Shown one piece after another: positions 1,422-39,441 of a DNA stretch of 44,509 nucleotides. The position numbers were made by a program, and so were the translations under genes. A model generated the notes under the pieces. It saw only the letters and a program-made list of their open reading frames with translations, was not told the DNA's origin and made no database searches. Position 1 is the first letter of the stretch. Each line of letters opens with the position of its first letter. The stretch comes from Escherichia phage JSSK01, in sequence record OQ442786; one strand, given 5' to 3'.

Positions 1422-1704
1422 AATCACAATCGCATCACTCGAGCGCCGTATTCTGGTGCTTGAGTCAGAGAAACAGACGTTAGGCGGGCAACTGTCAATT
1501 AACGGTGAGTTTCAACTGGAGGCGTTTAAAGAGCTACTGGCTATTAAGACGCAAGAACCGAACGTGTACGCGGGGTTGTTCGTCGGTGACGACAGTTCTT
1601 CTCTGGCTTATTACAACACGGCAACTGCAGCTTCAAAGGACGGGGCCGACGTAATAATCCCGCTGTATGACAATGTTGTTGAGCCAGAAGATGAAAACGC
1701 CTGA
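1414..1704 (+). CDS. hypothetical early protein (96 aa)
   Basis: track ORF 1405-1704 begins at GTG; the in-frame ATG at 1414 (MPKIT...) is the likelier start. Confidence 0.5.
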   Translation: MPKITIASLERRILVLESEKQTLGGQLSINGEFQLEAFKELLAIKTQEPNVYAGLFVGDDSSSLAYYNTATAASKDGADVIIPLYDNVVEPEDENA

Positions 1705-1873
1705 GCCAGTAGTTATCGATGGCGTCCTGTGGAAACCCTACTCGGTTAACCACATCGACGCCGACGGGAAGAAGTTCAGCTTCTACATTTTTGCAATTAG
1801 CCGTGAGCACGCCGCTTGTGTGGTCGATGATATACGAGAGACGGCGTGGCTTGGTGATGAGATAGTGGGGTGA
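1691..1873 (+). CDS. hypothetical early protein (60 aa)
   Basis: track ORF 1667-1873; internal ATG at 1691 overlaps upstream stop. Confidence 0.45.
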   Translation: MKTPEPVVIDGVLWKPYSVNHIDADGKKFSFYIFAISREHAACVVDDIRETAWLGDEIVG

Positions 1874-1877
1874 GAGT

Positions 1878-1970
1878 ATGAGTCTCGAGGTGGTTATTGG
1901 CCTTGTAGCAGCAGGTTATTTTATCGGCGTATTGATTGGGTTTATGTGGGGTAGAGACAGTGTTCAGTGA
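1878..1970 (+). CDS. small hydrophobic peptide (30 aa, one predicted TM helix)
   Basis: not in track; GAGAG SD then ATG; sequence VVIGLVAAGYFIGVLIGFMW is membrane-like. Confidence 0.3.
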   Translation: MSLEVVIGLVAAGYFIGVLIGFMWGRDSVQ

Positions 1971-2130
1971 CATCAACGCAGCAATCGAAGAGGCAATCTG
2001 GCGCCGCTACAACGGAGAGCAGCAGCGGCACTTCTGCCTGGTGCAACGCGGCAACATGGTCGCCGTAGTGCAGGACCGTGATAACAAATATCCGAATGCG
2101 ATGTGGACGACGAGGAATTTCTTAGGATGA
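1936..2130 (+). CDS. hypothetical protein (start uncertain; in-frame GTG at 1960)
   Basis: track ORF; overlaps preceding peptide ORF. Confidence 0.4.
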   Translation: MGLCGVETVFSDINAAIEEAIWRRYNGEQQRHFCLVQRGNMVAVVQDRDNKYPNAMWTTRNFLG

Positions 2131-2324
2131 AACAGTTCCTCATAACCTTCAACTGGGCCGATGGTACAGGTGGCAACGGATTCGGCAACTGTAGCAGGTC
2201 ACCACTCAACGGCGATAAATTCACACATAAAGAGCTTAAAGATATAGAGCTCGACATTGCACGCATTATGGCTCGTGATGTTAAGGTTATAGTATTGAAT
2301 ATCGTGGAGATTGCGCCAGAATGA
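2127..2324 (+). CDS. hypothetical early protein (65 aa)
   Basis: track ORF 2103-2324; ATG at 2127 overlaps upstream stop. Confidence 0.45.
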   Translation: MKQFLITFNWADGTGGNGFGNCSRSPLNGDKFTHKELKDIELDIARIMARDVKVIVLNIVEIAPE

Positions 2325-2557
2325 TTACCAGCATTCCGAACCTGATTAAAGAATTCGGCACGATGGCCGAGACGTGCCGACAAACCGGCATCAACGAAAT
2401 GACGATTGCGAAGTACAGCAAAGACGTTAACTGCGAGCGCCACGTAATTTATAACAACCGTCTGATGACGCACGTTAAAACAAGCCCGGTGTTATTCACG
2501 CGCCGGGGTATCACTAAAACTGAGCAACGTATCGCACGAGAGGAGAGCGGGGAATGA
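2321..2557 (+). CDS. hypothetical early protein (78 aa)
   Basis: ATGA-coupled track ORF. Confidence 0.5.
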   Translation: MITSIPNLIKEFGTMAETCRQTGINEMTIAKYSKDVNCERHVIYNNRLMTHVKTSPVLFTRRGITKTEQRIAREESGE

Positions 2558-2655
2558 GACTACTAATCATCCCTAACGCCCGGGCCATTCCCGTAGCTAA
2601 CGACCATTACGGCGGCGACGGTAAAAGAGCACCACGCCACGGCCTATACAACTGA
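2554..2655 (+). CDS. hypothetical small protein (33 aa)
   Basis: not in track; ATGA coupling; followed by terminator. Confidence 0.3.
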   Translation: MRLLIIPNARAIPVANDHYGGDGKRAPRHGLYN

Positions 2656-2658
2656 TAC

Positions 2659-2684
2659 AAGCCCTCTACCGAGGGCTTTTCTGT
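2659..2684 (+). terminator. rho-independent terminator closing the early block
   Basis: AGCCCTC/GAGGGCT stem, TACC loop, TTTT. Confidence 0.55.
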
Positions 2685-2776
2685 ACATCCCGCCCAATCC
2701 CCTTATATAATCCATTTAGACGCGTAGGGCGCGTCTGGTGCGCTCTGATGGTCAGACGCATATGCAAGGGGATTCT

Positions 2777-3289
2777 ATGAAGCTGAAACTCAAGCAGCCA
2801 TCACCAGAGGTGGTGCAAGCTGCACATGAAGAAGCTGTTAGCGCAAACCGTCGCCGTAAACGACCGCGCGGTAAACAGAGCCTTTATCAATCATCCCGTA
2901 ATTCCGCCGCGTTGTGGGACCCGGACTATTGTGACGAATTGATTCGTTTCTTCGACCGCACGTCGTGGGAGGCTATGCCGACCGGTGCGCACGGAGACTA
3001 CAAAGCAGTCATTGCGGATAAACCGCCATCACTGGCTCGCTTCGCCTTACACATCGGTGTCACTATCCCGATTATTAAGCTGTGGCTGCGCGAGATTCCC
3101 TCATTTGCAGAAGCCTATGAAACGGCACAGGCGCTGGAAGAGGCGTATTTCACTGAGAATGGGGCCGCCGGTATCTCTGCTACGTTCGCCGCCGCTAAGC
3201 TGGGGCTGAATAAAACAGTTGTCGCCGAAGAAGTACGCGACGAGCCAATCAGTGAAGTAACAATTAAGGTGGTGTCCGGTGAACGTTAA
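2777..3289 (+). CDS. terminase small subunit (putative)
   Basis: 170-aa ORF directly upstream of and overlapping the large terminase; start reassigned to ATG 2777 with AAGGGG SD; basic N-terminus; call by position. Confidence 0.5.
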   Translation: MKLKLKQPSPEVVQAAHEEAVSANRRRKRPRGKQSLYQSSRNSAALWDPDYCDELIRFFDRTSWEAMPTGAHGDYKAVIADKPPSLARFALHIGVTIPIIKLWLREIPSFAEAYETAQALEEAYFTENGAAGISATFAAAKLGLNKTVVAEEVRDEPISEVTIKVVSGER

Positions 3290-4550
3290 TATCACGGCAA
3301 CGGAACCTCAAGGCGCATTTCTTGGGATGCATTGCAAGTTCCCTGCGTTCGTGGCTGGCTTCGGCACCGGGAAATCAGAGGTTATGTGTAACTCCGCGCT
3401 ACTGGACAGCATGGAGGGTGGCAGCGATTCTATCATCGCCATGTATGAGCCTACTTATGACCTGGTACGCCTTATCCTTGCGCCCCGTATGGAAGAGAAG
3501 CTGACGGACTGGGGTATCCGGTACAAATACAATAAGTCCGACAACATAATCTATACGTCATCCGGTCAATTTGGGGATTTTGTCCTGCGTACATTAGATA
3601 ACCCAGCACGAATCGTTGGTTACGAGTCATTTCGTGCAAAAATCGACGAGTTGGATACCCTGAACATGGAACACGCGGAGCACGCATGGAACAAAGTCAT
3701 CGCCCGTAACCGTCAGTTGCCGAGGACGTATAAACCTATTACGCCAAAACCTGCTAATACCGTTTCCGTGTTCACTACGCCGGAAGGATTCCGTTTCGTG
3801 CATGACCGCTGGGTTGTTAAAAAGAATCCTGGTTACGAGATGATTCAGGCGTCCACCCTGTCTAACCCGTTCCTGCCAGAAGATTATGTGCAGTCCTTAC
3901 GAGATACCTACCCCGGGCAGTTGATTGATGCCTACATCAACGGCGAGTTCGTAAACCTCACGGCTGGGACGGTCTACTACGCTTACGACCGCAGGAAAAA
4001 CAGCAGTCGCGAAACAATCAAGCCTGGTGAGACTCTGTATATTGGGCAGGATTTTAACGTAGGCCATATGGCGAGCACAGTCTACGTGCAACGCGGAAAG
4101 GTGTGGCACGCTGTCGCCGAGTTGGTTGATATGTTCGATACGCCGGATGTAGTGCGAGCCATAACGGAGCGCTGGAAAAGTAAGGGCCATTATATCGTTA
4201 TGTACCCGGACGCCAGCGGCAAGAACCGTAAAAGCAACAACGCCAGCACCTCCGACATCGCCCAGCTACAGCAGGCCGGTTTCGAAGTACGCGCTAAATC
4301 GACAAACCCACCGGTTAAAGACCGCGTATCTGCGATGAATAAGGCGCTTGAATCTGGTATGGTCATGATTAACGAACAGGCTTGCCCGGTTACTGCTCGA
4401 TGCCTGGAGCAGCAAGCCTACGACAAGAACGGCGAACCGGATAAATCAGGTGGTGTTGACCACCAGAATGATGGAACCACATACCCTATCGCGTATGAAA
4501 TGCCGATTCGCAAACCAGTTATTAACGTCCCGGTGACTTTCGCACTTTAA
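3279..4550 (+). CDS. terminase large subunit
   Basis: 423 aa; Walker A-like GFGTGKS near N-terminus; GTG start after AAGGTGG SD; immediately upstream of portal. Confidence 0.85.
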   Translation: MNVNITATEPQGAFLGMHCKFPAFVAGFGTGKSEVMCNSALLDSMEGGSDSIIAMYEPTYDLVRLILAPRMEEKLTDWGIRYKYNKSDNIIYTSSGQFGDFVLRTLDNPARIVGYESFRAKIDELDTLNMEHAEHAWNKVIARNRQLPRTYKPITPKPANTVSVFTTPEGFRFVHDRWVVKKNPGYEMIQASTLSNPFLPEDYVQSLRDTYPGQLIDAYINGEFVNLTAGTVYYAYDRRKNSSRETIKPGETLYIGQDFNVGHMASTVYVQRGKVWHAVAELVDMFDTPDVVRAITERWKSKGHYIVMYPDASGKNRKSNNASTSDIAQLQQAGFEVRAKSTNPPVKDRVSAMNKALESGMVMINEQACPVTARCLEQQAYDKNGEPDKSGGVDHQNDGTTYPIAYEMPIRKPVINVPVTFAL

Positions 4551-16843: not shown

Positions 16844-16951
16844 GTAATGTGATAGAATAATTTTGCGCCTAGTGTCGCACACGAAAAGTGGGTGGTTCCC
16901 GTCTGGCGCATTTACCGTTAACCTGAAACCTCTTAACCAAAGGATTAAAGA

Positions 16952-17371
16952 ATGAAACTTTCTGATTTTTATTTCGAAGAGAAAGCACTGGTAGGCAAGA
17001 AGATGCCGATTCTGCTACCAAACGGCGAAGACTCTGGCGAGTGGCTTAATGTTGTAAGCCCGGATGCAGATGCTGCCGTTAAAGCGGGGCGTGCTTTCAT
17101 TATCGCGTACCGTCGCGGGTTGGCGCGTTTTGAAGAACTGGAAAAGGCCGCCAAAGAATCTGGCGACTATACTGAATATAACCTGGCGGTTAACGAACTG
17201 GCGGAAGACCTGAACCGACAACTCGCGGCAGAAGTCGTAAACGGCTGGAGCTTTGACGACGAGCCTTTCTCTAAGGAAGCATTTAACAAATTGCTAGACC
17301 AGTTCAAAGGGCTTGGAACACAAGTAGCGGCGTTTCATAACGCTGAACGTAAAGCATTACAGGAAAAGTAG
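16952..17371 (+). CDS. tail assembly chaperone (G-like)
   Basis: 139-aa acidic ORF immediately upstream of tape measure; AGGA SD. Confidence 0.65.
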   Translation: MKLSDFYFEEKALVGKKMPILLPNGEDSGEWLNVVSPDADAAVKAGRAFIIAYRRGLARFEELEKAAKESGDYTEYNLAVNELAEDLNRQLAAEVVNGWSFDDEPFSKEAFNKLLDQFKGLGTQVAAFHNAERKALQEK

Positions 17372-21379: not shown

Positions 21380-23925
21380 TCCTGCACTACACGCGAAACG
21401 CCGATGGCGCTTTCGACCGTACAAAACACGTCGGGACGCCGATGGAGTTTGTCGTTAACCATATCCCTGACGGCGTGCCTGTGCGCGTCTACATCGGTGA
21501 GATTGGTGCTGATACGGATGTAACCGACGACTTCGATGCGCTTAAAGACGAAGACGCCGTGTACCACATTATTGAGGGTGCAGGTAGCGGGGCGCTTGGT
21601 GCTGTTAGTAAGGTGTTTGGTTTTATCCTTAAGCCAATCGCTAAGTTGTTCGGCCTGAACATGTCTGCAAACGCCAACTACACGGCGACTAATAACCAGA
21701 CAACATCACCAAATAACAGCCTCACAGACCGCTCAAACAAGCCGCGTCCTTACGAGCGCTCTTATGACATCTGCGGGACCGTGCAGACAATCCCTAATGA
21801 CCTGATGCAGACGTATAAAGCGTTCGACAGCACCGGTAACTTGCTGGAGTACTCCTTTTATGACGCAGGGCGCGGACATCTGCATATTGCGGCGGATGGC
21901 GTCACAGAAGGCGACACCCTGATAAGCGATATCACAGGTTCCTCTGTTGCCGTGTATGCGCCGTATACGTCACCGAACAACACCACATCTCCGCAACTAC
22001 AAATCGGCGACGTCATTGCCCAGAAACTCTATGTGACATACTCCAACGACGACGTTGACGGTATTGTACTGAAAGCGCCAAACGACATTGGGGCCAACCC
22101 AAGCTCCGGTGGAACCGCCAAACGTATTTCGACCACCGGCTACCTATATGACCCGTCGGGTGACTCTGCTTTTTCTGAGTTTCTTAGTGTTGGTGATGTC
22201 GCAGTGTTGAGCAATTTCGACGTTAAGGACGTCACTAACCTAAACGGCTCGTTTGAGGTTTTATACGTCGACGACTTTGAGGTTCGGTTGTACGTCGGGG
22301 ATATAGGTAACTGGGGTAACCTTAATAACGGAGAGACTTACGCACTTACAGAGCGTTCGGATACGTTTATAGGCCCAAGCAACACCTATGACGTATCTCT
22401 TACGGACTGGTATTACATGGTGCGCGGAGAAGTCGACCGGGTTCTCGCTAACGTTGCCGGGCAGAACGGCCTCTACAAATACGACGGCGGCTATAACCGC
22501 ACCAGCGTAACCGTAGAACTCCAGTACCAGATGATTGACTCTCAGCGTAACCCGTTGAGCGATATTTACACGGTACAGGCTACGATTACTGGTAATAGCA
22601 CGGATTACGTTGGTACGTCTATCTACGGGCAGTTGCCGACCGCGTCTCGTTTCCGCGCCCGTATGCGCCGTATAACGAATTTTGATAAGGACTATGACGG
22701 AACGGTAAGCGACGAGATAACATTCATTAACCTGTATGGGCAGTCTCTGGACACCACTCCACACTACGGCAACCGAACTACCGTACATTGCGCCCGTAAA
22801 CAGACGCCGCGGGCCGCCAGTATCGATAACCCTGAACTGCGCATGATTGCGACCGAGATGTGCTACAAATACCTCGGCAATGGGGTATTCGATACAGTAA
22901 TGACACCGAACACGCAAGCCGTACAATCTCTAATTCGACTGGCGCGCGACCCCGCAGTAGGCAATCTGGAACTGACAACGGCAAACATGGACAAGTTACT
23001 TGCTGTGCAGGAAGAAATTGAGTCCTATTTCGGAAGTGAATTAGCAGGGCAATTCTGCTACACGTTCGACGACTATGACACCACGATGCAGGACATCGTT
23101 CAGACCATAGCGGAAGCCGTGTTCTGTACTGCGTACCGTAAAGGTGCGGATATTATGCTGCGATTCGACCGTCCTGTCGCGGGGCCTGAAATGGTGTTCA
23201 CCCACCGCAGCAAAACTACCGGTACTGAGAAATGGACCCGCACGTTCAACGATTCGACAACCTACGATAGCCTGTCGTTCTCATACATCGACCCGGATAC
23301 TAACGTACAGGAGACGATTTATATCCCGGAGGAACTCGGCGCAAATACCGAGGAATACGAATCGAAGGGCGTGCGCAACTACCAGCAGGCGTACTGGCTT
23401 GCGTGGCGTCGATATCAGCGCAATGCGTTAAGTAAAGTTGTCGTAGAGTTCGAAGCTACCGAAGAGGGGGCACTCGCTACACCGGGCGGCGTAATCAGTG
23501 TCGTTAAAGGCTCGCGTATCGCGCCGCAGGATGGCTATGTTGTTGCCGTTAATGGGCTTACGCTGACACTGTCACAGCCGGTTACGTTTACCCCCGGCGA
23601 TGACCACTCCATCATCCTCAAGAAGCGCGATGGCTCCGTGCAGAGTATTTCTGTTATCAAAGGAAACCACGACCGCGAAGTGATTATGCTCTCCGCGCCG
23701 GAGGAAGCAATATACACGGGGAATAGCGCACTAAAAACTGAGTTTTCATTCGGCAACGAAGCGAGGCATAATGCACAGAAGATAGTTGTTTCTTCAATCG
23801 ACCCGGGCGACGACCGCACGGTCAAGATTACAGGCTACAACTATGATGAAGGTTTCTATAAATACGACGGCGTCGCGCCATACGGCAGCGGTTTCTCCGA
23901 CGGATTCAGCAATGGTTTTAATTAA
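21370..23925 (+). CDS. tail tip / host specificity protein (J-like)
   Basis: 851-aa ORF after the tail assembly genes; TTG start in track, true start uncertain. Confidence 0.65.
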   Translation: MAIILHYTRNADGAFDRTKHVGTPMEFVVNHIPDGVPVRVYIGEIGADTDVTDDFDALKDEDAVYHIIEGAGSGALGAVSKVFGFILKPIAKLFGLNMSANANYTATNNQTTSPNNSLTDRSNKPRPYERSYDICGTVQTIPNDLMQTYKAFDSTGNLLEYSFYDAGRGHLHIAADGVTEGDTLISDITGSSVAVYAPYTSPNNTTSPQLQIGDVIAQKLYVTYSNDDVDGIVLKAPNDIGANPSSGGTAKRISTTGYLYDPSGDSAFSEFLSVGDVAVLSNFDVKDVTNLNGSFEVLYVDDFEVRLYVGDIGNWGNLNNGETYALTERSDTFIGPSNTYDVSLTDWYYMVRGEVDRVLANVAGQNGLYKYDGGYNRTSVTVELQYQMIDSQRNPLSDIYTVQATITGNSTDYVGTSIYGQLPTASRFRARMRRITNFDKDYDGTVSDEITFINLYGQSLDTTPHYGNRTTVHCARKQTPRAASIDNPELRMIATEMCYKYLGNGVFDTVMTPNTQAVQSLIRLARDPAVGNLELTTANMDKLLAVQEEIESYFGSELAGQFCYTFDDYDTTMQDIVQTIAEAVFCTAYRKGADIMLRFDRPVAGPEMVFTHRSKTTGTEKWTRTFNDSTTYDSLSFSYIDPDTNVQETIYIPEELGANTEEYESKGVRNYQQAYWLAWRRYQRNALSKVVVEFEATEEGALATPGGVISVVKGSRIAPQDGYVVAVNGLTLTLSQPVTFTPGDDHSIILKKRDGSVQSISVIKGNHDREVIMLSAPEEAIYTGNSALKTEFSFGNEARHNAQKIVVSSIDPGDDRTVKITGYNYDEGFYKYDGVAPYGSGFSDGFSNGFN

Positions 23926-23937
23926 AGAGGACTCTAT

Positions 23938-26892
23938 ATGTCAAGCGGATGCGGTGACGTTTTAAGCTTGGCGGATTTACAAACCGCCAAGAAACACCAG
24001 ATTTTCGAAGCTGAGGTTATTACTGGTAAATCCGGCGGTGTTGCTACTGGTGCTGATATTGATTACGCGACCAACGCAGTTACAGGGCAGACACAGAAGA
24101 CACTGCCGGCTGTGTTGCGTGACGCAGGTTTTAAACTGGCAGATTTTGATTTCACGTCAGGCGGTACACTATCCGCTAACGACCGAAACACCGCAGTTTT
24201 GTGGCCGTCGTCCTCTGGCGGTGACGGGGATTGGTACTATTGGTTGGGTGCTCTGCCAAAAATTATCCCAGCGTCATCTTCTCCGCAGTCCACCGGTGGC
24301 GTGGCAGATGGGGCGTGGCAACCCGTCGGGTCGGTCGTACTGAGGCAGCAAATATCTAATGTAAACGGTGCAACTCTGTACCCAGATTTACATATGGCGC
24401 GATGGAAGGACGAATACGACCTACGCGCATGGGGCGCCGTGGGCGACGGTGTAACTGATGATACTCAATCTATTTTTAATGTATTAGCAGCTTCTCCCAA
24501 CAATTGGATTATAGACGGCAGGGGTTTGACTTATAAAGTTTCCCAATTACCTGACATTAGTAAATTTAAGAATGCTGCATTCGTTTACGAGCGCGTAGCC
24601 GGGCAACCGCTTACTTATGTAGCTGATGGCTTCTTTAACAGCTCACTAACTAAGGTGACGGATACCCCGTTCTACAACGCATGGACGCAGGATAAAACTT
24701 TCGTCTACGACCATGTTATTTACGCCCCGTTTATGGCGGGCGAACGACATGGCGTTCAAAACTTACATGTAGCTTGGGTTCGCTCTGGTGACGACGGGCA
24801 GACTTGGTCAATGCCTGAGTGGTTGACTCCAATCCATGCCGACTATAACGCCAGTGTTTCTGCAGACAGAGTTAACTACCACTGCATGAGCATGGGTACG
24901 TGCGGCAACCGATTATATGCAGTTATAGAAACCCGCTACTTGTCTAATATGCGGATGAAGAAGGCAGAACTTTGGTCACGCCCGATGCCGTATTTTAGAC
25001 ACCCAACCGGCGGAATAACTATTAGTTCTGGCTCCACTACTGCTACCATTGTTATAGAAAATCATGGCCTAAAAGCAGGAGATGCGGTTAACTTCTCTAA
25101 TACATCGGCAACTGGCGTATCGGGTAATATGACGGTTGCGTCTATAATTAACCGAAATACGTTCACTGTTACGCTCTCAAGCCCTGCGGGTTCCACCATA
25201 AACAATGCGGGGGTTACCTGGAACTTCGCAACGCGATTCTGGGACAGCCCGTGGGAAATTACCGAATTGCCGGGGGTGGCATACTCCACTAACGCTGATT
25301 TGTGTGTCACGGAGACACATAGTTTTGCGGTTATAGATGATACTAACTACACTATCGCTGTCGGCTACCACAACGGCGATGTGTCCCCTCGTCGTCTTGG
25401 CGTCTTGTATTTTAGTAACGTTTATGACAACCCAGGCGTATTCGTTCGTCGCACTGTCGCTCAGGCATACGCTGATAACGCTTCTGAACCGTGCGTGAAA
25501 AGTTATGGAGGTGTGCTCTACCTTACCACACGCGGCACATTACCTACTTCCCCTGGCTCTACACTGGCGATGAGCACCGATTCTGGGCAAAACTGGAGCT
25601 ACTTGCGATTTCCGAACAATGTACATCACTCCAATCTTCCGTTCGCTAAAGTAGGTGACTATCTCTACATCTTTGGTACAGAACGTGCCTTTGGTGAGTG
25701 GGAAGGGGGTGAGCCGGACAGTCGCTATGAAGGTTCGTATCCACGGACCTTTATGTGCAAAGTTAATGTGTCGTCATGGCCTTCATCTTTAGATGATGTT
25801 CAGTGGTTTAATATTACCGACCAAATATACCAGGGCCATATCGTTAACTCTGCAGTCGGCGTCGGCTCTGTCTGTGTTAAAGATGGCTGGTTGTACTATA
25901 TCTTTGGAGGGGAAGACTTCTTCTCTCCCTGGAGCATAGGGGATAACAGTGCGAAGTTATGGTACAAACATGATGGGCACCCGGCTGACTTATATAGCTA
26001 CCGGATAAAGATTGAAGACCACCCGTATGTATCACGTGATTTCAAATACGGAGCAACTCCTAACCGTACAATACCTGTCGCCATGGGGGTAGATGGTGTA
26101 CGCCATGTAGAAGCACCTTTAACGTTTGACAATGATGTAAGCGTGTACTCCCTGCGTGTAACGGGGCTGGAATACGATGGCACACAACAGTCTGCCGTTC
26201 GTGCGCGGTTTGATGGTGATTACGGGCTGATTTCAAAAACAGTCCCGACTAAAACTCCATCTGCTCAACGACTGATTGTTAGTGGCGGTGATGGCGCATC
26301 CAGTTCCGACGGTGCATTGCTGCAGCTGTACGGGTCGAACCATGCAACGCCTAACAGGGCTATTATGTATGCGTCAGGAGGCTTCTACTCATACGACAAT
26401 TTCCTTCCTTACTTAGACTCGCAAGTGTCTTTAGGTTCGGCAGGTAATAGGTGGACTACGGTGTACGCGACCACCGGTACGATAAACACGTCTGACGGTA
26501 CACTTAAGACGAACAAAGAGGAAATTGAGGAACAACTCCTTACCGCGTGGGAAGATATACATGTAATATCTTTTAAGTGGCTTGAAAGCCTAGCAACCAA
26601 AGGTGACACTGCAAGGATACACTTCGGTGTGATAGCCCAAGATGTGCGAGACATATTGGTCAAACATGGGCTTATGGAGAAAGATTCTACCGATTGTAAA
26701 TATGCTTTCTTGTGCTACGACTCAATTGAAGCTGTGTATGATATTGATGAAGATGGACGGACTGTACAAGTATCCCCTCCCGGCGGCAGATGGGGGGTTA
26801 GGGCGGACCAGATGTTCTTCATAGAGATTGCGTATCAGCGTAAGAAGATGCGCGAGTTCGAGAAGAGGCTGGCAGCACTAGAAGATAAATAA
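23938..26892 (+). CDS. tailspike / tail fibre with C-terminal intramolecular chaperone (peptidase S74-like) domain
   Basis: AGAGGA SD; GAVGDGVTDDT motif (~24431-24465); two Asp-box-like motifs SGDDGQTW and STDSGQNW; C-terminal SDGTLKTNKEEIE matches the self-cleavage motif of endosialidase/T5 L-fibre chaperone domains. Confidence 0.8.
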   Translation: MSSGCGDVLSLADLQTAKKHQIFEAEVITGKSGGVATGADIDYATNAVTGQTQKTLPAVLRDAGFKLADFDFTSGGTLSANDRNTAVLWPSSSGGDGDWYYWLGALPKIIPASSSPQSTGGVADGAWQPVGSVVLRQQISNVNGATLYPDLHMARWKDEYDLRAWGAVGDGVTDDTQSIFNVLAASPNNWIIDGRGLTYKVSQLPDISKFKNAAFVYERVAGQPLTYVADGFFNSSLTKVTDTPFYNAWTQDKTFVYDHVIYAPFMAGERHGVQNLHVAWVRSGDDGQTWSMPEWLTPIHADYNASVSADRVNYHCMSMGTCGNRLYAVIETRYLSNMRMKKAELWSRPMPYFRHPTGGITISSGSTTATIVIENHGLKAGDAVNFSNTSATGVSGNMTVASIINRNTFTVTLSSPAGSTINNAGVTWNFATRFWDSPWEITELPGVAYSTNADLCVTETHSFAVIDDTNYTIAVGYHNGDVSPRRLGVLYFSNVYDNPGVFVRRTVAQAYADNASEPCVKSYGGVLYLTTRGTLPTSPGSTLAMSTDSGQNWSYLRFPNNVHHSNLPFAKVGDYLYIFGTERAFGEWEGGEPDSRYEGSYPRTFMCKVNVSSWPSSLDDVQWFNITDQIYQGHIVNSAVGVGSVCVKDGWLYYIFGGEDFFSPWSIGDNSAKLWYKHDGHPADLYSYRIKIEDHPYVSRDFKYGATPNRTIPVAMGVDGVRHVEAPLTFDNDVSVYSLRVTGLEYDGTQQSAVRARFDGDYGLISKTVPTKTPSAQRLIVSGGDGASSSDGALLQLYGSNHATPNRAIMYASGGFYSYDNFLPYLDSQVSLGSAGNRWTTVYATTGTINTSDGTLKTNKEEIEEQLLTAWEDIHVISFKWLESLATKGDTARIHFGVIAQDVRDILVKHGLMEKDSTDCKYAFLCYDSIEAVYDIDEDGRTVQVSPPGGRWGVRADQMFFIEIAYQRKKMREFEKRLAALEDK

Positions 26893-26896
26893 AACT

Positions 26897-26920
26897 AAGG
26901 CCCCAAACGGGGCCTTTTCT
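26897..26920. terminator. bidirectional terminator (AGGCCCC-AAAC-GGGGCCT, TTTTCT)
   Basis: between convergent tailspike and minus-strand replication genes. Confidence 0.7.
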
Positions 26921-27058
26921 CTACTCTTCCGATAACTTCTCCAGTACAAACGCCAGTTGCGCATTAGCGGCGTCTCTCTGTTGCCGTAGTCGCAGAACCT
27001 CCTCTTCGAGTTCCTTGATACGTTTTTGCAATGCCGGAATCGGGGCTATGATGTTCAT
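26921..27058 (-). CDS. hypothetical small coiled-coil protein (45 aa)
   Basis: not in track; ATGA coupling with Toprim gene stop; ends at terminator. Confidence 0.25.
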   Translation of the reverse strand: MNIIAPIPALQKRIKELEEEVLRLRQQRDAANAQLAFVLEKLSEE

Positions 27059-27570
27059 CTGGTAAATTTCCTCGCAAGATACGTTATTTCTTCTTCACAA
27101 AGTTCATCAAGGTCGTTAGATACAAATCCTCTGGTGAATGTTTTGCTGAACTTTAATCCAGCTTTATCATTGTCGCCAGCGCACACCCAGTCATACGGCA
27201 AAAGTGACATTTGCTGCCGTAGGTCTGTTGATATATTTGACCCCAGTGCGCTTACAGCATTGAACCCGCAATTCATCAAGGCTACGGCTTTGAATATGCT
27301 TTCGGTAACAAATACCACCCCGCTTTCCGGCAAATACTCAAGCCCCCATAAACACGGCCTTGTTGTTCTGGTAAAGTACCGCGCGTCTTTAGGGTTTTTA
27401 CAGTTCTTTTCGGCATGTGGTTTGTAATGCTGGTATCCGCGAAGCCTACCGTCAAACCCCCACAGGTAAAACGTAGCTACTCCAGGGGCTAAGACTACCC
27501 GGAGACGGTCGGCGTCAAACCCACGCGCCAGCAGATGCGCCTTAAGTAGTAACTCCTCACAATCCATCAT
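27055..27570 (-). CDS. Toprim-domain protein (DnaG-like primase core or nuclease)
   Basis: VFVTESIFKA (conserved Glu) and CAGDNDKAG (DxD) in Toprim-like order. Confidence 0.5.
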   Translation of the reverse strand: MMDCEELLLKAHLLARGFDADRLRVVLAPGVATFYLWGFDGRLRGYQHYKPHAEKNCKNPKDARYFTRTTRPCLWGLEYLPESGVVFVTESIFKAVALMNCGFNAVSALGSNISTDLRQQMSLLPYDWVCAGDNDKAGLKFSKTFTRGFVSNDLDELCEEEITYLARKFTR

Positions 27571-28991
27571 TTCTTACCTCGTCTCTTCATGTAATTAAGC
27601 AATTCTTCCTGTACTGATTTCTTCTCGTCTGTACGAGCGGCGACAACCTCGTCAAGAGTGTCTTTAGCAACGATGTGGTAGAGGAACACCGGGCGCTCGT
27701 GCCCTGCCTGCTTCTGGCGGACAGGGCCTATACGCTCAACCACCTGCAAATAGTGCTCAAGGTTCCAACCTTGTGAAATAAACGCCAGATGGTGACCGCC
27801 GTCCTGTAAATTCAAACCATGACCGGCTGACGCAGGGTGTACGCACAAGATTTCGATTTCACCTCGGTTCCACGCTTCCATCTGCTTATTACCCTTAGCA
27901 CCTTTGGCAAATGCCTGTGCCTGCGGGAATCGCTTAAGGATGCGCTCCAGTTCGTGCTTGAACTGATAGGCTACAAGCAACGGCGCACCCTGTAACTCCT
28001 CAACAATGGACTCAAGCGCATCAAGTTTAGTGTCGTGCACTTTCTCCCATTCTTTGGTTGCTTCGCCATCTGGTCCCGATACATACACGGCACCAGAAGC
28101 AATCTGCAGGCACTTCGACGTCTTCGCTGCCGCGTTAGCCGCTTCAACTTCTCCGCTCTCCAGTTCCGCGAATAACTTTTCCTCCATATCTATGTACGCC
28201 TGACGCGCTTTCTTCGGCAGGTCGATTTCAACCGGTACAATAATCGGCGCTTCACACCCGAACCACTCGGCGGCGTCAATCGTGAGGCTAATATCCTTCA
28301 TCTTCTGGTGAATTTCACTATCCGCGCCAGGGCGCGCATGATACTCCCGCGCCATAGCCGATTTGCCTTTCTGCACCGAGTTAAACCAGCGGTCGGTGAA
28401 TGCGGTGTATGAAGACCCCAGGCGCTCGCCAGCGTCGATAAACCAGTTCTGGCCCCACAAATCCTTGAGGCCGTTAGGTGATGGTGTACCTGTAAGGTTA
28501 ATGAAACGCTTAACCTTACCGAACGCCACTTTGCTTAGCGCCTTCGCCCGCTTGCTTCCGCCAGAACGGCTGCGGAAAGATTTAAGCTTCGTGCTTTCAT
28601 CGGCAACGATAACAGTAAAAGGCCAGTCGTCTTTTCCGTAGTAGTCAATCAGCCACTCAATAACTTCGTAGTTTGTGCAAACCACGTTAGCATCAGACTC
28701 CAGCGCCGCGATGCGGCGCTTCTCCGAACCAGTTGCATCGACTACACTCAGGCAAGGAAAGTTCCATTTCTCTTGTTCTGCGGGCCACGTGCCTGACGCA
28801 ACACGTAACGGGGCGAGGATTAACACGCGGTCGCCGTCATTAAGTTGGCCGTTGCGGAACAGTCGGTTTAATGTCCACAGTACGCTGCCAGTCTTCCCGG
28901 CACCCATGCTTGCCCAAATATTACAGCGATGGTGCCGCAACATGAACGAAGTCATGAGCTTCTGGTACTCGCGCCTTTGAAACTTAGACAT
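27567..28991 (-). CDS. SNF2/DEAD-like superfamily 2 helicase
   Basis: start reassigned to ATG 28991 (MSKFQ, GAGG SD); Walker A GAGKTGS, DEST box (VIVADEST), helicase C-terminal QVVERIGPVRQ. Confidence 0.85.
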   Translation of the reverse strand: MSKFQRREYQKLMTSFMLRHHRCNIWASMGAGKTGSVLWTLNRLFRNGQLNDGDRVLILAPLRVASGTWPAEQEKWNFPCLSVVDATGSEKRRIAALESDANVVCTNYEVIEWLIDYYGKDDWPFTVIVADESTKLKSFRSRSGGSKRAKALSKVAFGKVKRFINLTGTPSPNGLKDLWGQNWFIDAGERLGSSYTAFTDRWFNSVQKGKSAMAREYHARPGADSEIHQKMKDISLTIDAAEWFGCEAPIIVPVEIDLPKKARQAYIDMEEKLFAELESGEVEAANAAAKTSKCLQIASGAVYVSGPDGEATKEWEKVHDTKLDALESIVEELQGAPLLVAYQFKHELERILKRFPQAQAFAKGAKGNKQMEAWNRGEIEILCVHPASAGHGLNLQDGGHHLAFISQGWNLEHYLQVVERIGPVRQKQAGHERPVFLYHIVAKDTLDEVVAARTDEKKSVQEELLNYMKRRGKK

Positions 28992-29667
28992 GATTAGCCT
29001 CGTAAACTGCTTTCGCAAACCCTCTCGGAGTAAGGCTGCGGATTGTCTTTGTCCGCACTGATTTACCGCCAAGTTTGTTGTGCTGGTCGGAGTACCCATC
29101 AACAACGGCAACACATGATTTAACCGGCATAACAAAACCGTTACCCGCCCAAATACATGTCTTCTTAGGGTACGCGTCCCGTGGTTTTATGTATTCAGGG
29201 AACATTGGGTGTGTGTCGTTTTCCGGTAGATAGCCGCCGTATTCGTAGGGATTGAACGCGTAGTCGGGCCTACGCCATAAAGACGAAAGAACGCTAACAG
29301 GGTTCTCAATCATATACGGTACTTTGTACTTTTTAGCCAGACGCGCTGCCACTTTGCATGTAATCACAGCCTCTACCTGAAACGTTGGGTTCTTCTTACG
29401 CTTCGTTTCGAAATGCGCCGCGCCACTAACGGCTAAATCTGTGCAAGGAGGGAACGCAAAAATAATATCCGGCGAAACCTCGAAGTCGAACTTATTATCA
29501 ATCCACGCGTTTATATAGTGGATGTTCTCGTGTTCAACCTTTGCACCCAATCGTGCGTAGTCGCCGTGGTCAGCGCCATCGTAGTTGAAACAGTAGCAAG
29601 TATGGCCTGCTTCTGCCCACGGTTGGGCCATAAGGCCCGAACCGTCAAACAATGACCAAACAATCAT
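28984..29667 (-). CDS. DNA (cytosine-5)-methyltransferase-like protein (compact, atypical)
   Basis: motif I LFDGSG, motif IV PPCT (Cys ~75), motif VI ENP (~121) with spacing similar to C5-MTases; only 227 aa. Confidence 0.55.
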   Translation of the reverse strand: MIVWSLFDGSGLMAQPWAEAGHTCYCFNYDGADHGDYARLGAKVEHENIHYINAWIDNKFDFEVSPDIIFAFPPCTDLAVSGAAHFETKRKKNPTFQVEAVITCKVAARLAKKYKVPYMIENPVSVLSSLWRRPDYAFNPYEYGGYLPENDTHPMFPEYIKPRDAYPKKTCIWAGNGFVMPVKSCVAVVDGYSDQHNKLGGKSVRTKTIRSLTPRGFAKAVYEANHV

Positions 29668-36733: not shown

Positions 36734-38956
36734 CTATTCCAAATCCTCCTCTGTCACCACCAGCATCTCATTTGGTTCGTATAGTGTCTTCGGCCTTAAT
36801 CTATCACCTATTCTTTCGGGTATACGATATGTTCTCGGTACTACTTCGCCGTTAGCATCGCAACCAAGCATTAGTTCTCCATCTTTCAACATTTTATCAA
36901 GATGGGTGTTAGTCACAGAGAAGTCACCGGAACGAGCCACTATCTGCTGCTGAGTAAAACCGCGACCTGTGTCATCTGACTGTTGCAGGTCTTCCAGTGC
37001 CGAAAGTATTGACTCCTTCCTTACTTCATCCCTGCCGCGTTTAACTTCTTCCTTTACTTTTTGCTTACCTTCTTTCGTCAACCCTTCTTCCCGCTCTTTC
37101 TCCTCGTCAGTTTTGAACGGCTCGAAACCCCACGGCATCAACACAAGCGCCTTGTGTGGTTCAGGCAGGTCCAGGTTTACGATTGTGCCGTATTCCTCTG
37201 TGCTACCCAGGAACTCAACCGCTCGGTATTCTTTAGGCGGCGGCGCTTCACGGAACTGTACCGACTCCAGCACCATGCCAACCGTCTTCTGCTGAGGCCC
37301 GTGCTTGAATTTCGAGTGATATACGTTTATCTGACGGTCGGTTGCACGTTCGATTGTCAGTTCCACGTCAACACCCGCATACAGCGCCCCACTGCCGCGT
37401 GCTTTCTTTCCACCCTTCGGCGTATGGTGGACAACGCCTACTGCGGCTTTAGTTGCATCGCGTACTTCTTTCAGAATGGCGATAACTTTACCCATGCCGA
37501 TTGCTGTTGATGAACTGTTCTCGTCGAACTTATCAATCGTCAGTGCCAGGGTCTGGTTAAGGGTGTCGAACGCAACCATGCCAATTGGCTCGTCGCCAGC
37601 AGTTTCGCGCATTAACTTAATCAGGCTTTTAAGTTTGCCGACTTCGCCCATATCGATGACGTGTACATAATCTTTACCTTCCCCGCCATATTTAGCCGCT
37701 AGTGCATCAATACGGGTGCGTGTAGCTGCGCCACCCTCACCATCAATATAGAAATGGTGGCAACGCTGGGTATCCGCCCCCGCAAACCTGTACCCGGCGG
37801 CGCTGAGGCACATCATCCCCAGCGTATAGAACGATTTGTACGTGCCAGATTCCCCGACGATATCCCAGATACAATCCGACGGCATGTACCCCTCAACGAC
37901 GAAATCAGCCTTTACCGGCTCCGGTAACTCGTCCTCCTCTGAGTCCTCGTCGTCTTCCAGGTCGTCGAGGCTGCAAGTTACTGGGTCCTCGTTCTCTGTG
38001 CGGTGTAGTTCTTCAATCTCTTCTTCCGGTAAATCAGGCAGAGCCGCACGAATGCTGTTAATGCTGATAGGTTGCTTATCTATGTTAAGCTCGTCGGGTA
38101 GGCCACACATACGCAGGGCCAAATGCTGCCTACGGTTAAGCTCGGTGCAAGCGCCGTTGTTTGTATGCTGGCAGACAAAGCGCACTTCTTTACCGTCGAG
38201 CATTATGCTGGTGGAGCCCTTGCCTGTATGCAGATGTTCGTTAGGGCATGGCACTTCGTACCCGCGCCCGGAAGATAAAGCGTCAAGGCCAAGCTCGGCT
38301 TCGCAGAAGTGTGCTATATCCGCGTTAAGCCCATGCTCATCAGCGGCAAGTGTTTTAGCCTCACGCTTACGCAACCCCATCTCTTCGGCTTTCTTGATGT
38401 ACCGCTCAGCACGGATAACACGCCCTTCTGTAACCGTTATCTTCGACTCTTTATGCGGCAGGTAGATAAGGCGGTTGCCGTCTTCTGTGCAGTGGTCACG
38501 CAACGCTTCGTCTATTTCTAACTCTGCACAAATAGCACGTTGCACCATCCACGCGTCGTTAGAGTTAAACGGCGTGCGAGCTGGAACCAGAACGCGGAAA
38601 GCGTAATCTCCGTTTTTACATGCGTGCTGATGCGATGCCGTTGTGTGCAGAATATTGAAGAACGGCGCGTTCTTGAATTTGCGTGTCAGGTCGCGGTACT
38701 GAGTACGGTTGAGATGGTCGAAATCGAACTTAACCACACTGTCTTCCAGGATAGCGTTTTTACGGCGACCACCAACAGGCGCAATAGCTTTCTGTTTAAT
38801 CTTGGCAGCGTCGTACTCTTCCTTAGTCCATGACGGGTCCACGGATAAACGCTTCGATGTATCGCAGACATACTCGACAAACTGCTCCAGCGGCATTTCA
38901 CGCGCTACAGGGTTTTTATCGAATGTGTTACGCAGCGTTGCAAAAACAATATTCAT
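36734..38956 (-). CDS. DNA primase/helicase (AEP-type primase-like N-terminal region + RecA-like ATPase)
   Basis: Walker A GESGTYKS, Walker B-like MVAFDTLNQ, sensor VVHHTPKGG; N-terminal DxD (FDFDHL) and His-rich block suggestive of AEP primase. Confidence 0.75.
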   Translation of the reverse strand: MNIVFATLRNTFDKNPVAREMPLEQFVEYVCDTSKRLSVDPSWTKEEYDAAKIKQKAIAPVGGRRKNAILEDSVVKFDFDHLNRTQYRDLTRKFKNAPFFNILHTTASHQHACKNGDYAFRVLVPARTPFNSNDAWMVQRAICAELEIDEALRDHCTEDGNRLIYLPHKESKITVTEGRVIRAERYIKKAEEMGLRKREAKTLAADEHGLNADIAHFCEAELGLDALSSGRGYEVPCPNEHLHTGKGSTSIMLDGKEVRFVCQHTNNGACTELNRRQHLALRMCGLPDELNIDKQPISINSIRAALPDLPEEEIEELHRTENEDPVTCSLDDLEDDEDSEEDELPEPVKADFVVEGYMPSDCIWDIVGESGTYKSFYTLGMMCLSAAGYRFAGADTQRCHHFYIDGEGGAATRTRIDALAAKYGGEGKDYVHVIDMGEVGKLKSLIKLMRETAGDEPIGMVAFDTLNQTLALTIDKFDENSSSTAIGMGKVIAILKEVRDATKAAVGVVHHTPKGGKKARGSGALYAGVDVELTIERATDRQINVYHSKFKHGPQQKTVGMVLESVQFREAPPPKEYRAVEFLGSTEEYGTIVNLDLPEPHKALVLMPWGFEPFKTDEEKEREEGLTKEGKQKVKEEVKRGRDEVRKESILSALEDLQQSDDTGRGFTQQQIVARSGDFSVTNTHLDKMLKDGELMLGCDANGEVVPRTYRIPERIGDRLRPKTLYEPNEMLVVTEEDLE

Positions 38957-39150
38957 TTCTTTTTCTCCGCACGTTCTAAGGCTTCCTGCATACGGCGCAT
39001 TGCGCGGTTCATCTTTACCGGCGCGAAGAAATCGGCGCCGTGTTTCTGTCGGCGTAGCTGTGGAACTATTAACTTTGTCATTGTATAATCCTTATGCTTA
39101 CTTTGATGGTTTGTACTTTAGCCCCGACGTTCTAGCGTTGGGGTTTCTTT

Positions 39151-39441
39151 TTACCGTTTAGCCAACCCTTCCAGCAAATTTTTATACTCTTCAAAATATT
39201 CCTCGACCAAATCATCGCCGAAATAGAAGTCGATATACTCGAGATTATCTCTTACGTTAAGCGATGCCGACATGGTGCTTAGTTGGCGTAAGCTAATTAG
39301 CTTCATTTCTGTTTCTACGCAGAAAGGCCGGTAGGTATCAAGATGGCAAGAGATATTGAAGCATAAAGCGAACTCTCCTGCCACGGAGTGAACCATATAC
39401 ACTTCGTTTTCTGCTTTATTGTGGAAAATTACGCCTTTCAT
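39151..39441 (-). CDS. hypothetical protein (96 aa)
   Basis: track ORF, ATGA-coupled to upstream HTH gene. Confidence 0.45.
   Translation of the reverse strand: MKGVIFHNKAENEVYMVHSVAGEFALCFNISCHLDTYRPFCVETEMKLISLRQLSTMSASLNVRDNLEYIDFYFGDDLVEEYFEEYKNLLEGLAKR

What the first reader, a model, noticed from the sequence alone, without database searches (positions are those of the whole stretch)
23938..26892. Tailspike combining a GDGxTDDT motif, Asp-box-like motifs and a self-cleaving C-terminal chaperone domain
The 984-aa tailspike ends in a ~133-aa module starting at SDGTLKTNKEEIE (~26491), matching the auto-proteolytic intramolecular chaperone of endosialidases and T5 L-shaped fibres. The body holds GAVGDGVTDDT (a motif I associate with beta-helix polysaccharide depolymerases) and two SxDxGxxW Asp-box-like motifs (~24784 and ~25576) typical of sialidase beta-propellers. 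This points to a capsule or O-antigen depolymerase whose specificity, possibly polysialic acid, cannot be fixed by eye.
Basis: partly seen in the sequence, partly recalled or inferred. Interest (0 to 1): 0.6.

Follow-up and report, generated by a model that had tools for sequence, protein, structure and literature searches.

The report
Known K1-capsule endosialidase tailspike
This gene encodes the well-studied 63D/K1G-type endosialidase tailspike of a K1-specific E. coli phage, an enzyme that cuts the polysialic-acid capsule and sheds its own C-terminal folding domain; it is real but ordinary.

Summary
An ORF at 23938-26892 (+) encodes 984 aa. It has GDGVTDDT at aa 169-176, two Asp boxes (aa 283-290 and 546-553) and a 133-aa C-terminal module starting at Ser852 (nt 26491).

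It is not an unusual combination. It is the standard bacteriophage endosialidase architecture:
- All four endosialidase Pfam domains plus Peptidase_S74 score far above threshold.
- The catalytic body is about 79% identical to the solved phi92 endosialidase (4HIZ) and about 51% to endoNF of phage K1F.
- The whole gene is 99.4% nt identical to phage BUCT825 and 95-97% to phage 63D, K1G and K1H.
- The window is a complete K1-specific Kagunavirus genome.

The endoNF catalytic residues map to H271, R485, E517, R532 and R583 here. The autoproteolytic Ser-Lys dyad maps to S852/K857. All are conserved.

Published work on near-identical enzymes (K1H, JSSK01, 63D) already shows K1 capsule degradation, a processed ~93 kDa product (predicted 92.8 kDa here) and trimers.

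The GDGxTDDT motif lies in the endosialidase N-terminal extension, at the junction where Kagunavirus tailspikes swap receptor-binding modules. There is no beta-helix depolymerase body.

Verdict: already known, low interest.

The parts
23925..23931 (+). Shine-Dalgarno sequence AAGAGGA, 6 nt before the ATG. It overlaps the stop codon of the upstream 851-aa tail protein gene.
   Evidence: Read directly from the sequence. The 63D record AB015437 annotates an RBS at the equivalent position.
23938..26892 (+). Endosialidase (endo-N-acetylneuraminidase) tailspike gene, 984 aa, 108.2 kDa precursor
23938..24192 (+). aa 1-85: virion-anchor module specific to Guernseyvirinae tailspikes. It is nearly identical in Kagunavirus and Jerseyvirus spikes that carry unrelated receptor-binding bodies.
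   Evidence: Alignment with the UTEC10, fEg-Eco19 and CTH7 tailspikes. tblastn finds aa 1-138 at about 70% identity in hundreds of Salmonella phages.
24193..24432 (+). aa 86-165: Tail_spike_N-type neck/linker (PF18668 matches aa 97-131). It is shared with K1F endoNF (57% identity) and resembles the N-terminal domains of CBA120 TSPs.
24433..24636 (+). aa 166-233: endosialidase N-terminal extension (PF12218), containing GDGVTDDT (aa 169-176, nt 24442-24465)
   Evidence: Pfam E=3.7e-38. Aligned to 4hiz and 1v0e from residue 166.
24637..26016 (+). aa 234-693: six-bladed beta-propeller catalytic domain (PF12217). Asp boxes are at nt 24784-24807 and 25573-25596. Catalytic residues are H271 (24748-24750), R485 (25390-25392), E517 (25486-25488), R532 (25531-25533) and R583 (25684-25686).
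   Evidence: Pfam E=4.4e-224. Residue mapping to endoNF H350/R549/E581/R596/R647.
24988..25236 (+). aa 351-433: beta-barrel domain inserted in the propeller (PF12195)
   Evidence: Pfam E=1.3e-41
26017..26490 (+). aa 694-851: stalk (tailspike) domain (PF12219). It ends at Thr851, the predicted C-terminus of the mature 92.8 kDa protein.
   Evidence: Pfam E=8.7e-75. The 4hiz chain ends exactly at the residue aligned to T851. The K1F mat_peptide ends at the aligned residue 910. Mass.
26491..26889 (+). aa 852-984: C-terminal intramolecular chaperone / autoprotease domain (Peptidase_S74), 15.4 kDa. The dyad is Ser852 (26491-26493) and Lys857 (26506-26508).
   Evidence: Pfam E=1.4e-13. 3gw6 endoNF CIMCD E=3.4e-41, and T5 pb1 4uw8. 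Dyad mapping.
26897..26916 (.). Hairpin AAGGCCCCAAACGGGGCCTT with T-runs on both strands. It is a likely bidirectional intrinsic terminator between the convergent late (tail) genes and the minus-strand replication genes.
   Evidence: The scan total was not above the shuffle expectation, so the function is inferred from position.

Best explanation
The gene encodes the tailspike endosialidase (endo-N-acetylneuraminidase, 63D/K1G type) of a K1-capsule-dependent Kagunavirus, a siphovirus of E. coli. The inferred mechanism comes from homology to characterised enzymes. The 108-kDa precursor trimerises under the guidance of its C-terminal 133-aa intramolecular chaperone domain. Once the stalk is folded, the Ser852/Lys857 dyad cuts the Thr851-Ser852 bond and releases the 15-kDa domain. 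The mature 92.8-kDa trimer attaches to the tail tip through its N-terminal ~140 aa, which are common to Guernseyvirinae spikes. Its beta-propeller active site (E517, R532, R583, with H271 and R485) hydrolyses alpha-2,8-linked polysialic acid of the K1 capsule. This lets the phage tunnel to the outer membrane.
For: Domain content: PF12218, PF12217, PF12195, PF12219 and PF13884 all score far above their gathering thresholds and appear in canonical order. Solved structures: 4hiz (phi92 endosialidase) matches aa 166-851 at 1304 bits. The endoNF entries 1v0e and 3gvl score 767 bits. The endoNF chaperone domain 3gw6 matches aa 756-984. Near-identical genes: 99.4% nt to BUCT825 'endo-N-acetylneuraminidase', 96.9% to the cloned 63D endo-N gene AB015437, and 96.1% and 95.2% to K1G and K1H 'tailspike 63D sialidase'. 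Protein identity to both 63D and K1G is 98%. The endoNF residues H350, R549, E581, R596 and R647 and the dyad S911/K916 are all conserved. The residue lists come from PMC12632334 and the dyad from PMC3742443. Experiments on orthologues: recombinant K1H depolymerase runs at 93 kDa 'after proteolysis', is mostly trimeric, degrades K1 capsule in vitro and rescues mice (PMC5696595). JSSK01 ORF40 has the same domains and K1-specific activity (PMC11641727). The 63D enzyme is listed among characterised endosialidases (PMC5380687). The predicted mature mass is 92.8 kDa. Context: the gene follows the tape-measure, distal-tail and 851-aa J-like tail genes, and the whole window is collinear with Kagunavirus BUCT825.
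Against: Nothing here contradicts it. No experiment was done on this exact protein. It differs from 63D at 21 positions and from K1G at 22, none of them at catalytic or dyad residues. The stalk residue equivalent to endoNF Q853 is Leu794 here, as in the phi92-type enzyme, so processivity and secondary polySia binding may differ from endoNF. Machida et al. reported a tetramer for the 63D enzyme (as cited in PMC5380687), whereas K1H was trimeric.
Confidence: 0.96

Rival explanations
1. A chimeric depolymerase in which a pectate-lyase-like beta-helix module, signalled by GDGxTDDT, is fused to a sialidase propeller. This would give two catalytic activities.
For: The motif GAVGDGVxDD does start the PF12708 beta-helix domain of the Kagunavirus UTEC10 tailspike at the same alignment position. 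There is a weak PF12708 match here (E=0.051).
Against: The PF12708 match is 13.8 bits against a cutoff of 27 and covers 20 residues with no significant stretch. Residues 166-233 align continuously to the endosialidase N-terminal extension in the crystal structures 4hiz and 1v0e. No sequence is left unaccounted for between aa 166 and 984.
Confidence: 0.01
2. The enzyme is a phi92-like bifunctional, non-processive endosialidase that also cuts alpha-2,9 linkages (K92 or alternating polymers), rather than a strict alpha-2,8 K1 enzyme.
For: The catalytic body is much closer to phi92 gp143 (78.9%) than to K1F endoNF (51.3%). phi92 gp143 is reported as bifunctional (PMC13450770 citing Schwarzer 2015). 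Leu794 replaces endoNF Q853, as in phi92-type proteins.
Against: All close relatives were isolated on, and depend on, K1 hosts. No alpha-2,9 activity has been reported for 63D-type or K1H-type enzymes in the papers read. About 21% divergence from phi92 leaves room for different regioselectivity.
Confidence: 0.15
3. A catalytically dead, binding-only spike: a polysialic-acid lectin.
For: None specific. Single substitutions are known to convert endosialidases into binding-only proteins (reference list in PMC5380687).
Against: All mapped catalytic residues are conserved. 98%-identical orthologues are active.
Confidence: 0.02

Closest known systems
Endo-N-acetylneuraminidase of coliphage 63D (AB015437 / BAA32990) and the 'tailspike 63D sialidase' of Kagunavirus K1G and K1H; nearest record is Escherichia phage BUCT825
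   Same: Same length (984 aa), same domain order and same genomic position. Protein identity is 98% to 63D and K1G, and 99.5% to BUCT825.
   Different: Only 21-22 scattered substitutions, none at catalytic or cleavage residues.
Phage phi92 endosialidase gp143 (PDB 4HIZ) and phAPEC8-type homologues
   Same: 78.9-79.4% identity over aa 166-851. Same propeller, barrel, stalk and chaperone layout, and the same mature C-terminus (...GTINT).
   Different: A different, shorter N-terminal attachment region, found on a myovirus. The chaperone domain is about 26 aa longer because of inserts in one loop region. phi92 is reported to cut alpha-2,9 as well as alpha-2,8.
Phage K1F endosialidase endoNF (PDB 1V0E, 3GVL; chaperone domain 3GW6)
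   Same: The fold and mechanism reference. About 51% identity over the body and 49% in the chaperone domain. Catalytic H/R/E/R/R residues and the Ser-Lys dyad are conserved.
   Different: K1F has a T7 gp17-type N-terminal adaptor instead of the Guernseyvirinae anchor. The stalk is only 38% identical, and Q853 is replaced by Leu.
Peptidase S74 / intramolecular chaperone auto-cleavage domains of T5 pb1 (4UW8), GA-1 neck appendage (3GUD) and MYRF
   Same: The same C-terminal domain with a Ser...Lys (+5) dyad. The length of 133 aa matches T5 pb1 (PMC4690869 abstract).
   Different: In those proteins the domain is attached to unrelated upstream fibre, spike or transcription-factor bodies.

Membership tests
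Bacteriophage endosialidase (endo-N-acetylneuraminidase, GH58-type tailspike) | Six-bladed beta-propeller catalytic domain (PF12217) with an inserted beta-barrel (PF12195), preceded by the N-terminal extension (PF12218) | tested here: met
   E=4.4e-224, 1.3e-41 and 3.7e-38, all full-length profile matches. Continuous alignment to 4hiz and 1v0e.
Bacteriophage endosialidase (endo-N-acetylneuraminidase, GH58-type tailspike) | Stalk domain (PF12219) following the propeller | tested here: met
   E=8.7e-75, aa 694-851
Bacteriophage endosialidase (endo-N-acetylneuraminidase, GH58-type tailspike) | Catalytic and substrate-binding residues of endoNF (H350, R549, E581, R596, R647) conserved | tested here: met
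   H271, R485, E517, R532 and R583. Residue list from PMC12632334.
Bacteriophage endosialidase (endo-N-acetylneuraminidase, GH58-type tailspike) | Two Asp-box (SxDxGxxW) motifs in the propeller | tested here: met
   aa 283-290 and 546-553. All fixed motif positions (S, D, G, W) are invariant across the five aligned endosialidases.
Bacteriophage endosialidase (endo-N-acetylneuraminidase, GH58-type tailspike) | Hydrolysis of alpha-2,8-polysialic acid (K1 capsule) | not testable with these tools
   Shown experimentally for K1H and JSSK01 ORF40 (PMC5696595; PMC11641727). Over the catalytic body the K1H enzyme is 97.5% identical to this one, and the paper reports JSSK01 ORF40 as 97.8% identical to K1G.
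Peptidase S74 / C-terminal intramolecular chaperone domain (CIMCD) | PF13884 domain at the extreme C-terminus, immediately after the stalk | tested here: met
   aa 852-912, 51.3 bits against a cutoff of 22. The 3gw6 alignment runs through to residue 984.
Peptidase S74 / C-terminal intramolecular chaperone domain (CIMCD) | Catalytic Ser-Lys dyad (endoNF S911/K916; MYRF S578/K583), with the Ser as first residue of the released domain | tested here: met
   S852 and K857 lie in invariant columns. The K1F mat_peptide boundary is 910|911. Dyad described in PMC3742443.
Peptidase S74 / C-terminal intramolecular chaperone domain (CIMCD) | Actual autoproteolytic release | not testable with these tools
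   The K1H enzyme migrates at 93 kDa 'after proteolysis'. The predicted mature mass here is 92.8 kDa.
Pectate-lyase-like right-handed beta-helix depolymerase (PF12708) | Profile match above the gathering score, extending over beta-helix coils | tested here: not met
   13.8 bits against a cutoff of 27. Only profile positions 7-26 matched, with no significant stretch. The following residues belong to the endosialidase domains.
Guernseyvirinae (Kagunavirus/Jerseyvirus) tailspike | Conserved N-terminal anchor, and gene position directly after the J-like tail protein gene | tested here: met
   aa 1-138 are about 70% identical to Jerseyvirus spikes and aa 1-65 are nearly identical to Kagunavirus spikes. 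Synteny with K1G, UTEC10, fEg-Eco19 and CTH7.

The most novel reading that the evidence does not exclude
The body is about 79% identical to the bifunctional phi92 enzyme and only about 51% to endoNF, and it shares the phi92-type Leu at the endoNF Q853 stalk site. This 63D-type siphovirus endosialidase might therefore also cleave alpha-2,9 sialyl linkages and act non-processively. That would widen its capsule range to K92 or meningococcal group C-type polymers. None of the papers read here tested this for 63D-type or K1H-type enzymes.
Probability: 0.15. Interest if true: 0.25.

Novelty: already known. Interest (0 to 1): 0.07.

Why it matters
It has annotation and practical value only. It identifies the window as a K1-capsule-dependent Kagunavirus and its host receptor as polysialic acid. 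Such phages and their endosialidases are used as therapeutic and diagnostic reagents against neonatal-meningitis and urinary-tract K1 E. coli. No new biology follows from this locus. The architecture, mechanism, structure and activity are all published for close relatives.

Tried and rejected
- Beta-helix depolymerase reading of GDGxTDDT. Rejected: the PF12708 match is sub-threshold and the region aligns to endosialidase crystal structures.
- tRNA and Rfam scans of the whole window found nothing.
- The promoter and terminator scan of 23500-27700 was not enriched over shuffles. Only the hairpin at 26897-26916 is positionally convincing.
- The phi92 endosialidase paper (PMID 25475852) could not be read because it is not held. 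The residues that determine alpha-2,9 specificity could therefore not be mapped.
- One literature query failed on syntax.
- Structure prediction and fold search were deliberately not run. About 79% identity to 4HIZ over 686 residues and 98% to biochemically characterised enzymes already settles the fold.
- The large protein-database searches were not used, for the same reason.

Full report
**Observation.**
- A Shine-Dalgarno AAGAGGA lies 6 nt upstream of the ATG and overlaps the stop codon of the preceding 851-aa tail protein gene.
- Five nucleotides after the TAA stop there is a G+C-rich hairpin (26897-26916) with T-runs on both strands. It sits between this gene and the convergent minus-strand genes.
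- GDGVTDDT is at aa 169-176 (nt 24442).
- SGDDGQTW is at aa 283-290 (nt 24784).
- SDGTLKTNKEEIE begins at Ser852 (nt 26491), leaving 133 residues.
- In 20,000 shuffles of the protein, two or more Asp-box matches, or one GDGxTDDT match, each occurred at a frequency of 5e-5.

**What it is.** Pfam places every part of the protein from aa 97 onward:

| Domain | Residues | E-value |
|---|---|---|
| Tail_spike_N | 97-131 | 1e-13 |
| End_N_terminal | 167-233 | 3.7e-38 |
| End_beta_propel | 234-693 | 4.4e-224 |
| End_beta_barrel (nested) | 351-433 | 1.3e-41 |
| End_tail_spike | 694-851 | 8.7e-75 |
| Peptidase_S74 | 852-912 | 1.4e-13 |

- Against solved structures, aa 166-851 align without significant gaps to the endosialidase 4HIZ (1304 bits) and to endoNF of phage K1F (1V0E and 3GVL, 767 bits). 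The C-terminus aligns to the endoNF chaperone-domain structure 3GW6 and, more distantly, to T5 pb1 (4UW8) and the GA-1 neck appendage (3GUD).
- The gene is 99.4% nt identical to 'endo-N-acetylneuraminidase' of Escherichia phage BUCT825. It is 96.9% identical to the cloned endo-N gene of phage 63D (AB015437), and 96.1% and 95.2% identical to the 'tailspike 63D sialidase' of K1G and K1H.
- Protein identity is 98% to 63D and to K1G, with 21 and 22 substitutions respectively.
- The whole window is collinear with BUCT825. Its two ends abut in that genome, so the window is a complete, circularly permuted Kagunavirus genome.

**Mechanism, and which steps are shown.**
- The endoNF residues that the K1F deep-mutational-scanning paper lists as catalytic or substrate-binding are H350, R549, E581, R596 and R647 (PMC12632334). 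They map to H271, R485, E517, R532 and R583 here and are invariant in all five aligned endosialidases.
- The K1F RefSeq record annotates the mature protein as ending at residue 910 and the chaperone domain as starting at 911. The aligned bond here is Thr851|Ser852.
- The Ser-Lys dyad that drives autocleavage in endosialidases (PMC3742443) maps to Ser852/Lys857, with the same +5 spacing.
- The 4HIZ crystal chain ends at the residue aligned to Thr851.
- Predicted masses are 108.2 kDa for the precursor, 92.8 kDa for the mature chain and 15.4 kDa for the released domain.
- These steps are inferred for this protein but have been demonstrated for orthologues. Recombinant K1H depolymerase runs at 93 kDa 'after proteolysis', is mostly trimeric, degrades purified K1 capsule and rescues infected mice (PMC5696595). 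JSSK01 ORF40 has the same four Pfam domains and degrades K1 capsule specifically (PMC11641727). The 63D enzyme is listed among the characterised endosialidases (PMC5380687).

**The GDGxTDDT motif and modularity.** The Kagunavirus UTEC10 tailspike has GAVGDGVADD at the same alignment position, and there it opens a PF12708 pectate-lyase-like domain.

In the present protein the PF12708 match is only 13.8 bits (cutoff 27) over 20 residues. What follows is the endosialidase cap and propeller seen in the crystal structures.

Alignment of Guernseyvirinae spikes shows a nearly identical anchor (aa 1-65, recognisable to about aa 138) joined to different bodies:
- a P22-type beta-helix in Jerseyvirus CTH7;
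- a pectate-lyase-like beta-helix in UTEC10;
- an unassigned body plus an S74 chaperone domain in fEg-Eco19;
- the endosialidase here.

Per-domain identities show that the endosialidase cassette shared with K1F starts at about aa 86, while that shared with phi92/phAPEC8-type myoviruses starts at about aa 135-165. The protein is therefore a textbook example of tailspike module exchange, which was described long ago for K1 phages (reviewed in PMC5380687). It is not a new chimera.

**Comparison and residual uncertainty.** The catalytic body is closer to phi92 gp143 (78.9%) than to endoNF (51.3%).
- phi92 gp143 is reported to hydrolyse both alpha-2,8 and alpha-2,9 polysialic acid (PMC13450770).
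- The endoNF stalk residue Q853 is Leu794 here, as in the phi92-type protein. From memory, not verified here, Q853 is part of a secondary polySia-binding site.
- R837 and S848 are conserved as R778 and S789.
- So regioselectivity and processivity could resemble phi92. This is the only open question, and a modest one.
- The tetramer reported for the 63D enzyme conflicts with the trimer found for K1H and with the trimeric crystal structures. This is a literature discrepancy, not a feature of this sequence.

**Verdict.** Interest is low.

Noticed in passing
window 27055-27570 (-): A 171-aa Toprim-like ORF (PF13155, E=9.7e-5) lies between the small ORF downstream of the tailspike and the SNF2-type helicase gene. 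It is absent from BUCT825 and K1G. It is 96% identical to a hypothetical protein in the same slot of the non-K1 Kagunavirus UTEC10. fEg-Eco19 carries an HNH homing endonuclease in that slot. The slot therefore looks like a hotspot for optional or mobile genes.
   Followed up: partly
window 26921-27058 (-): A 45-aa ORF with a coiled-coil-like sequence (MNIIAPIPALQKRIKELEEEVLRLRQQRDAANAQLAFVLEKLSEE). It is conserved as a 138-nt 'hypothetical protein' in BUCT825, UTEC10 and fEg-Eco19. Its start overlaps the stop of the Toprim-like ORF (ATGA).
   Followed up: partly
window 14406-15077 (-): A 223-aa Rha/ANT (KilAC) regulatory or antirepressor-like protein is encoded on the minus strand, directly after the plus-strand 390-aa ORF (13205-14377) that aligns to BUCT825's annotated tail tube gene. 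The segment 14409-15423 has no counterpart in BUCT825, which carries different minus-strand genes there (annotated 'GTP-binding protein era' and 'polynucleotide kinase').
   Followed up: partly
window 1-44509: The window ends (44035-44509 and 1-1270) map to adjacent positions (15239-15713 and 15716-16985) of BUCT825. The window is therefore a complete, circularly permuted Kagunavirus genome. Identity to BUCT825 is mosaic (76-99% by segment), with several unmatched stretches (for example 1271-1690, 3208-3902 and 37976-39437).
   Followed up: partly
window 28984-29667 (-): A 227-aa ORF with no Pfam hit. It lies at the position where K1G annotates overlapping 'putative C-specific methylase' and 'Mte8-like protein' genes.
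   Followed up: no
L007 (fEg-Eco19) 1501-3837: This Kagunavirus tailspike has the same N-terminal anchor and a Peptidase_S74 chaperone domain (41% identical to the one here). Its central body of about 500 aa has no Pfam assignment. It is a possible uncharacterised depolymerase.
   Followed up: no
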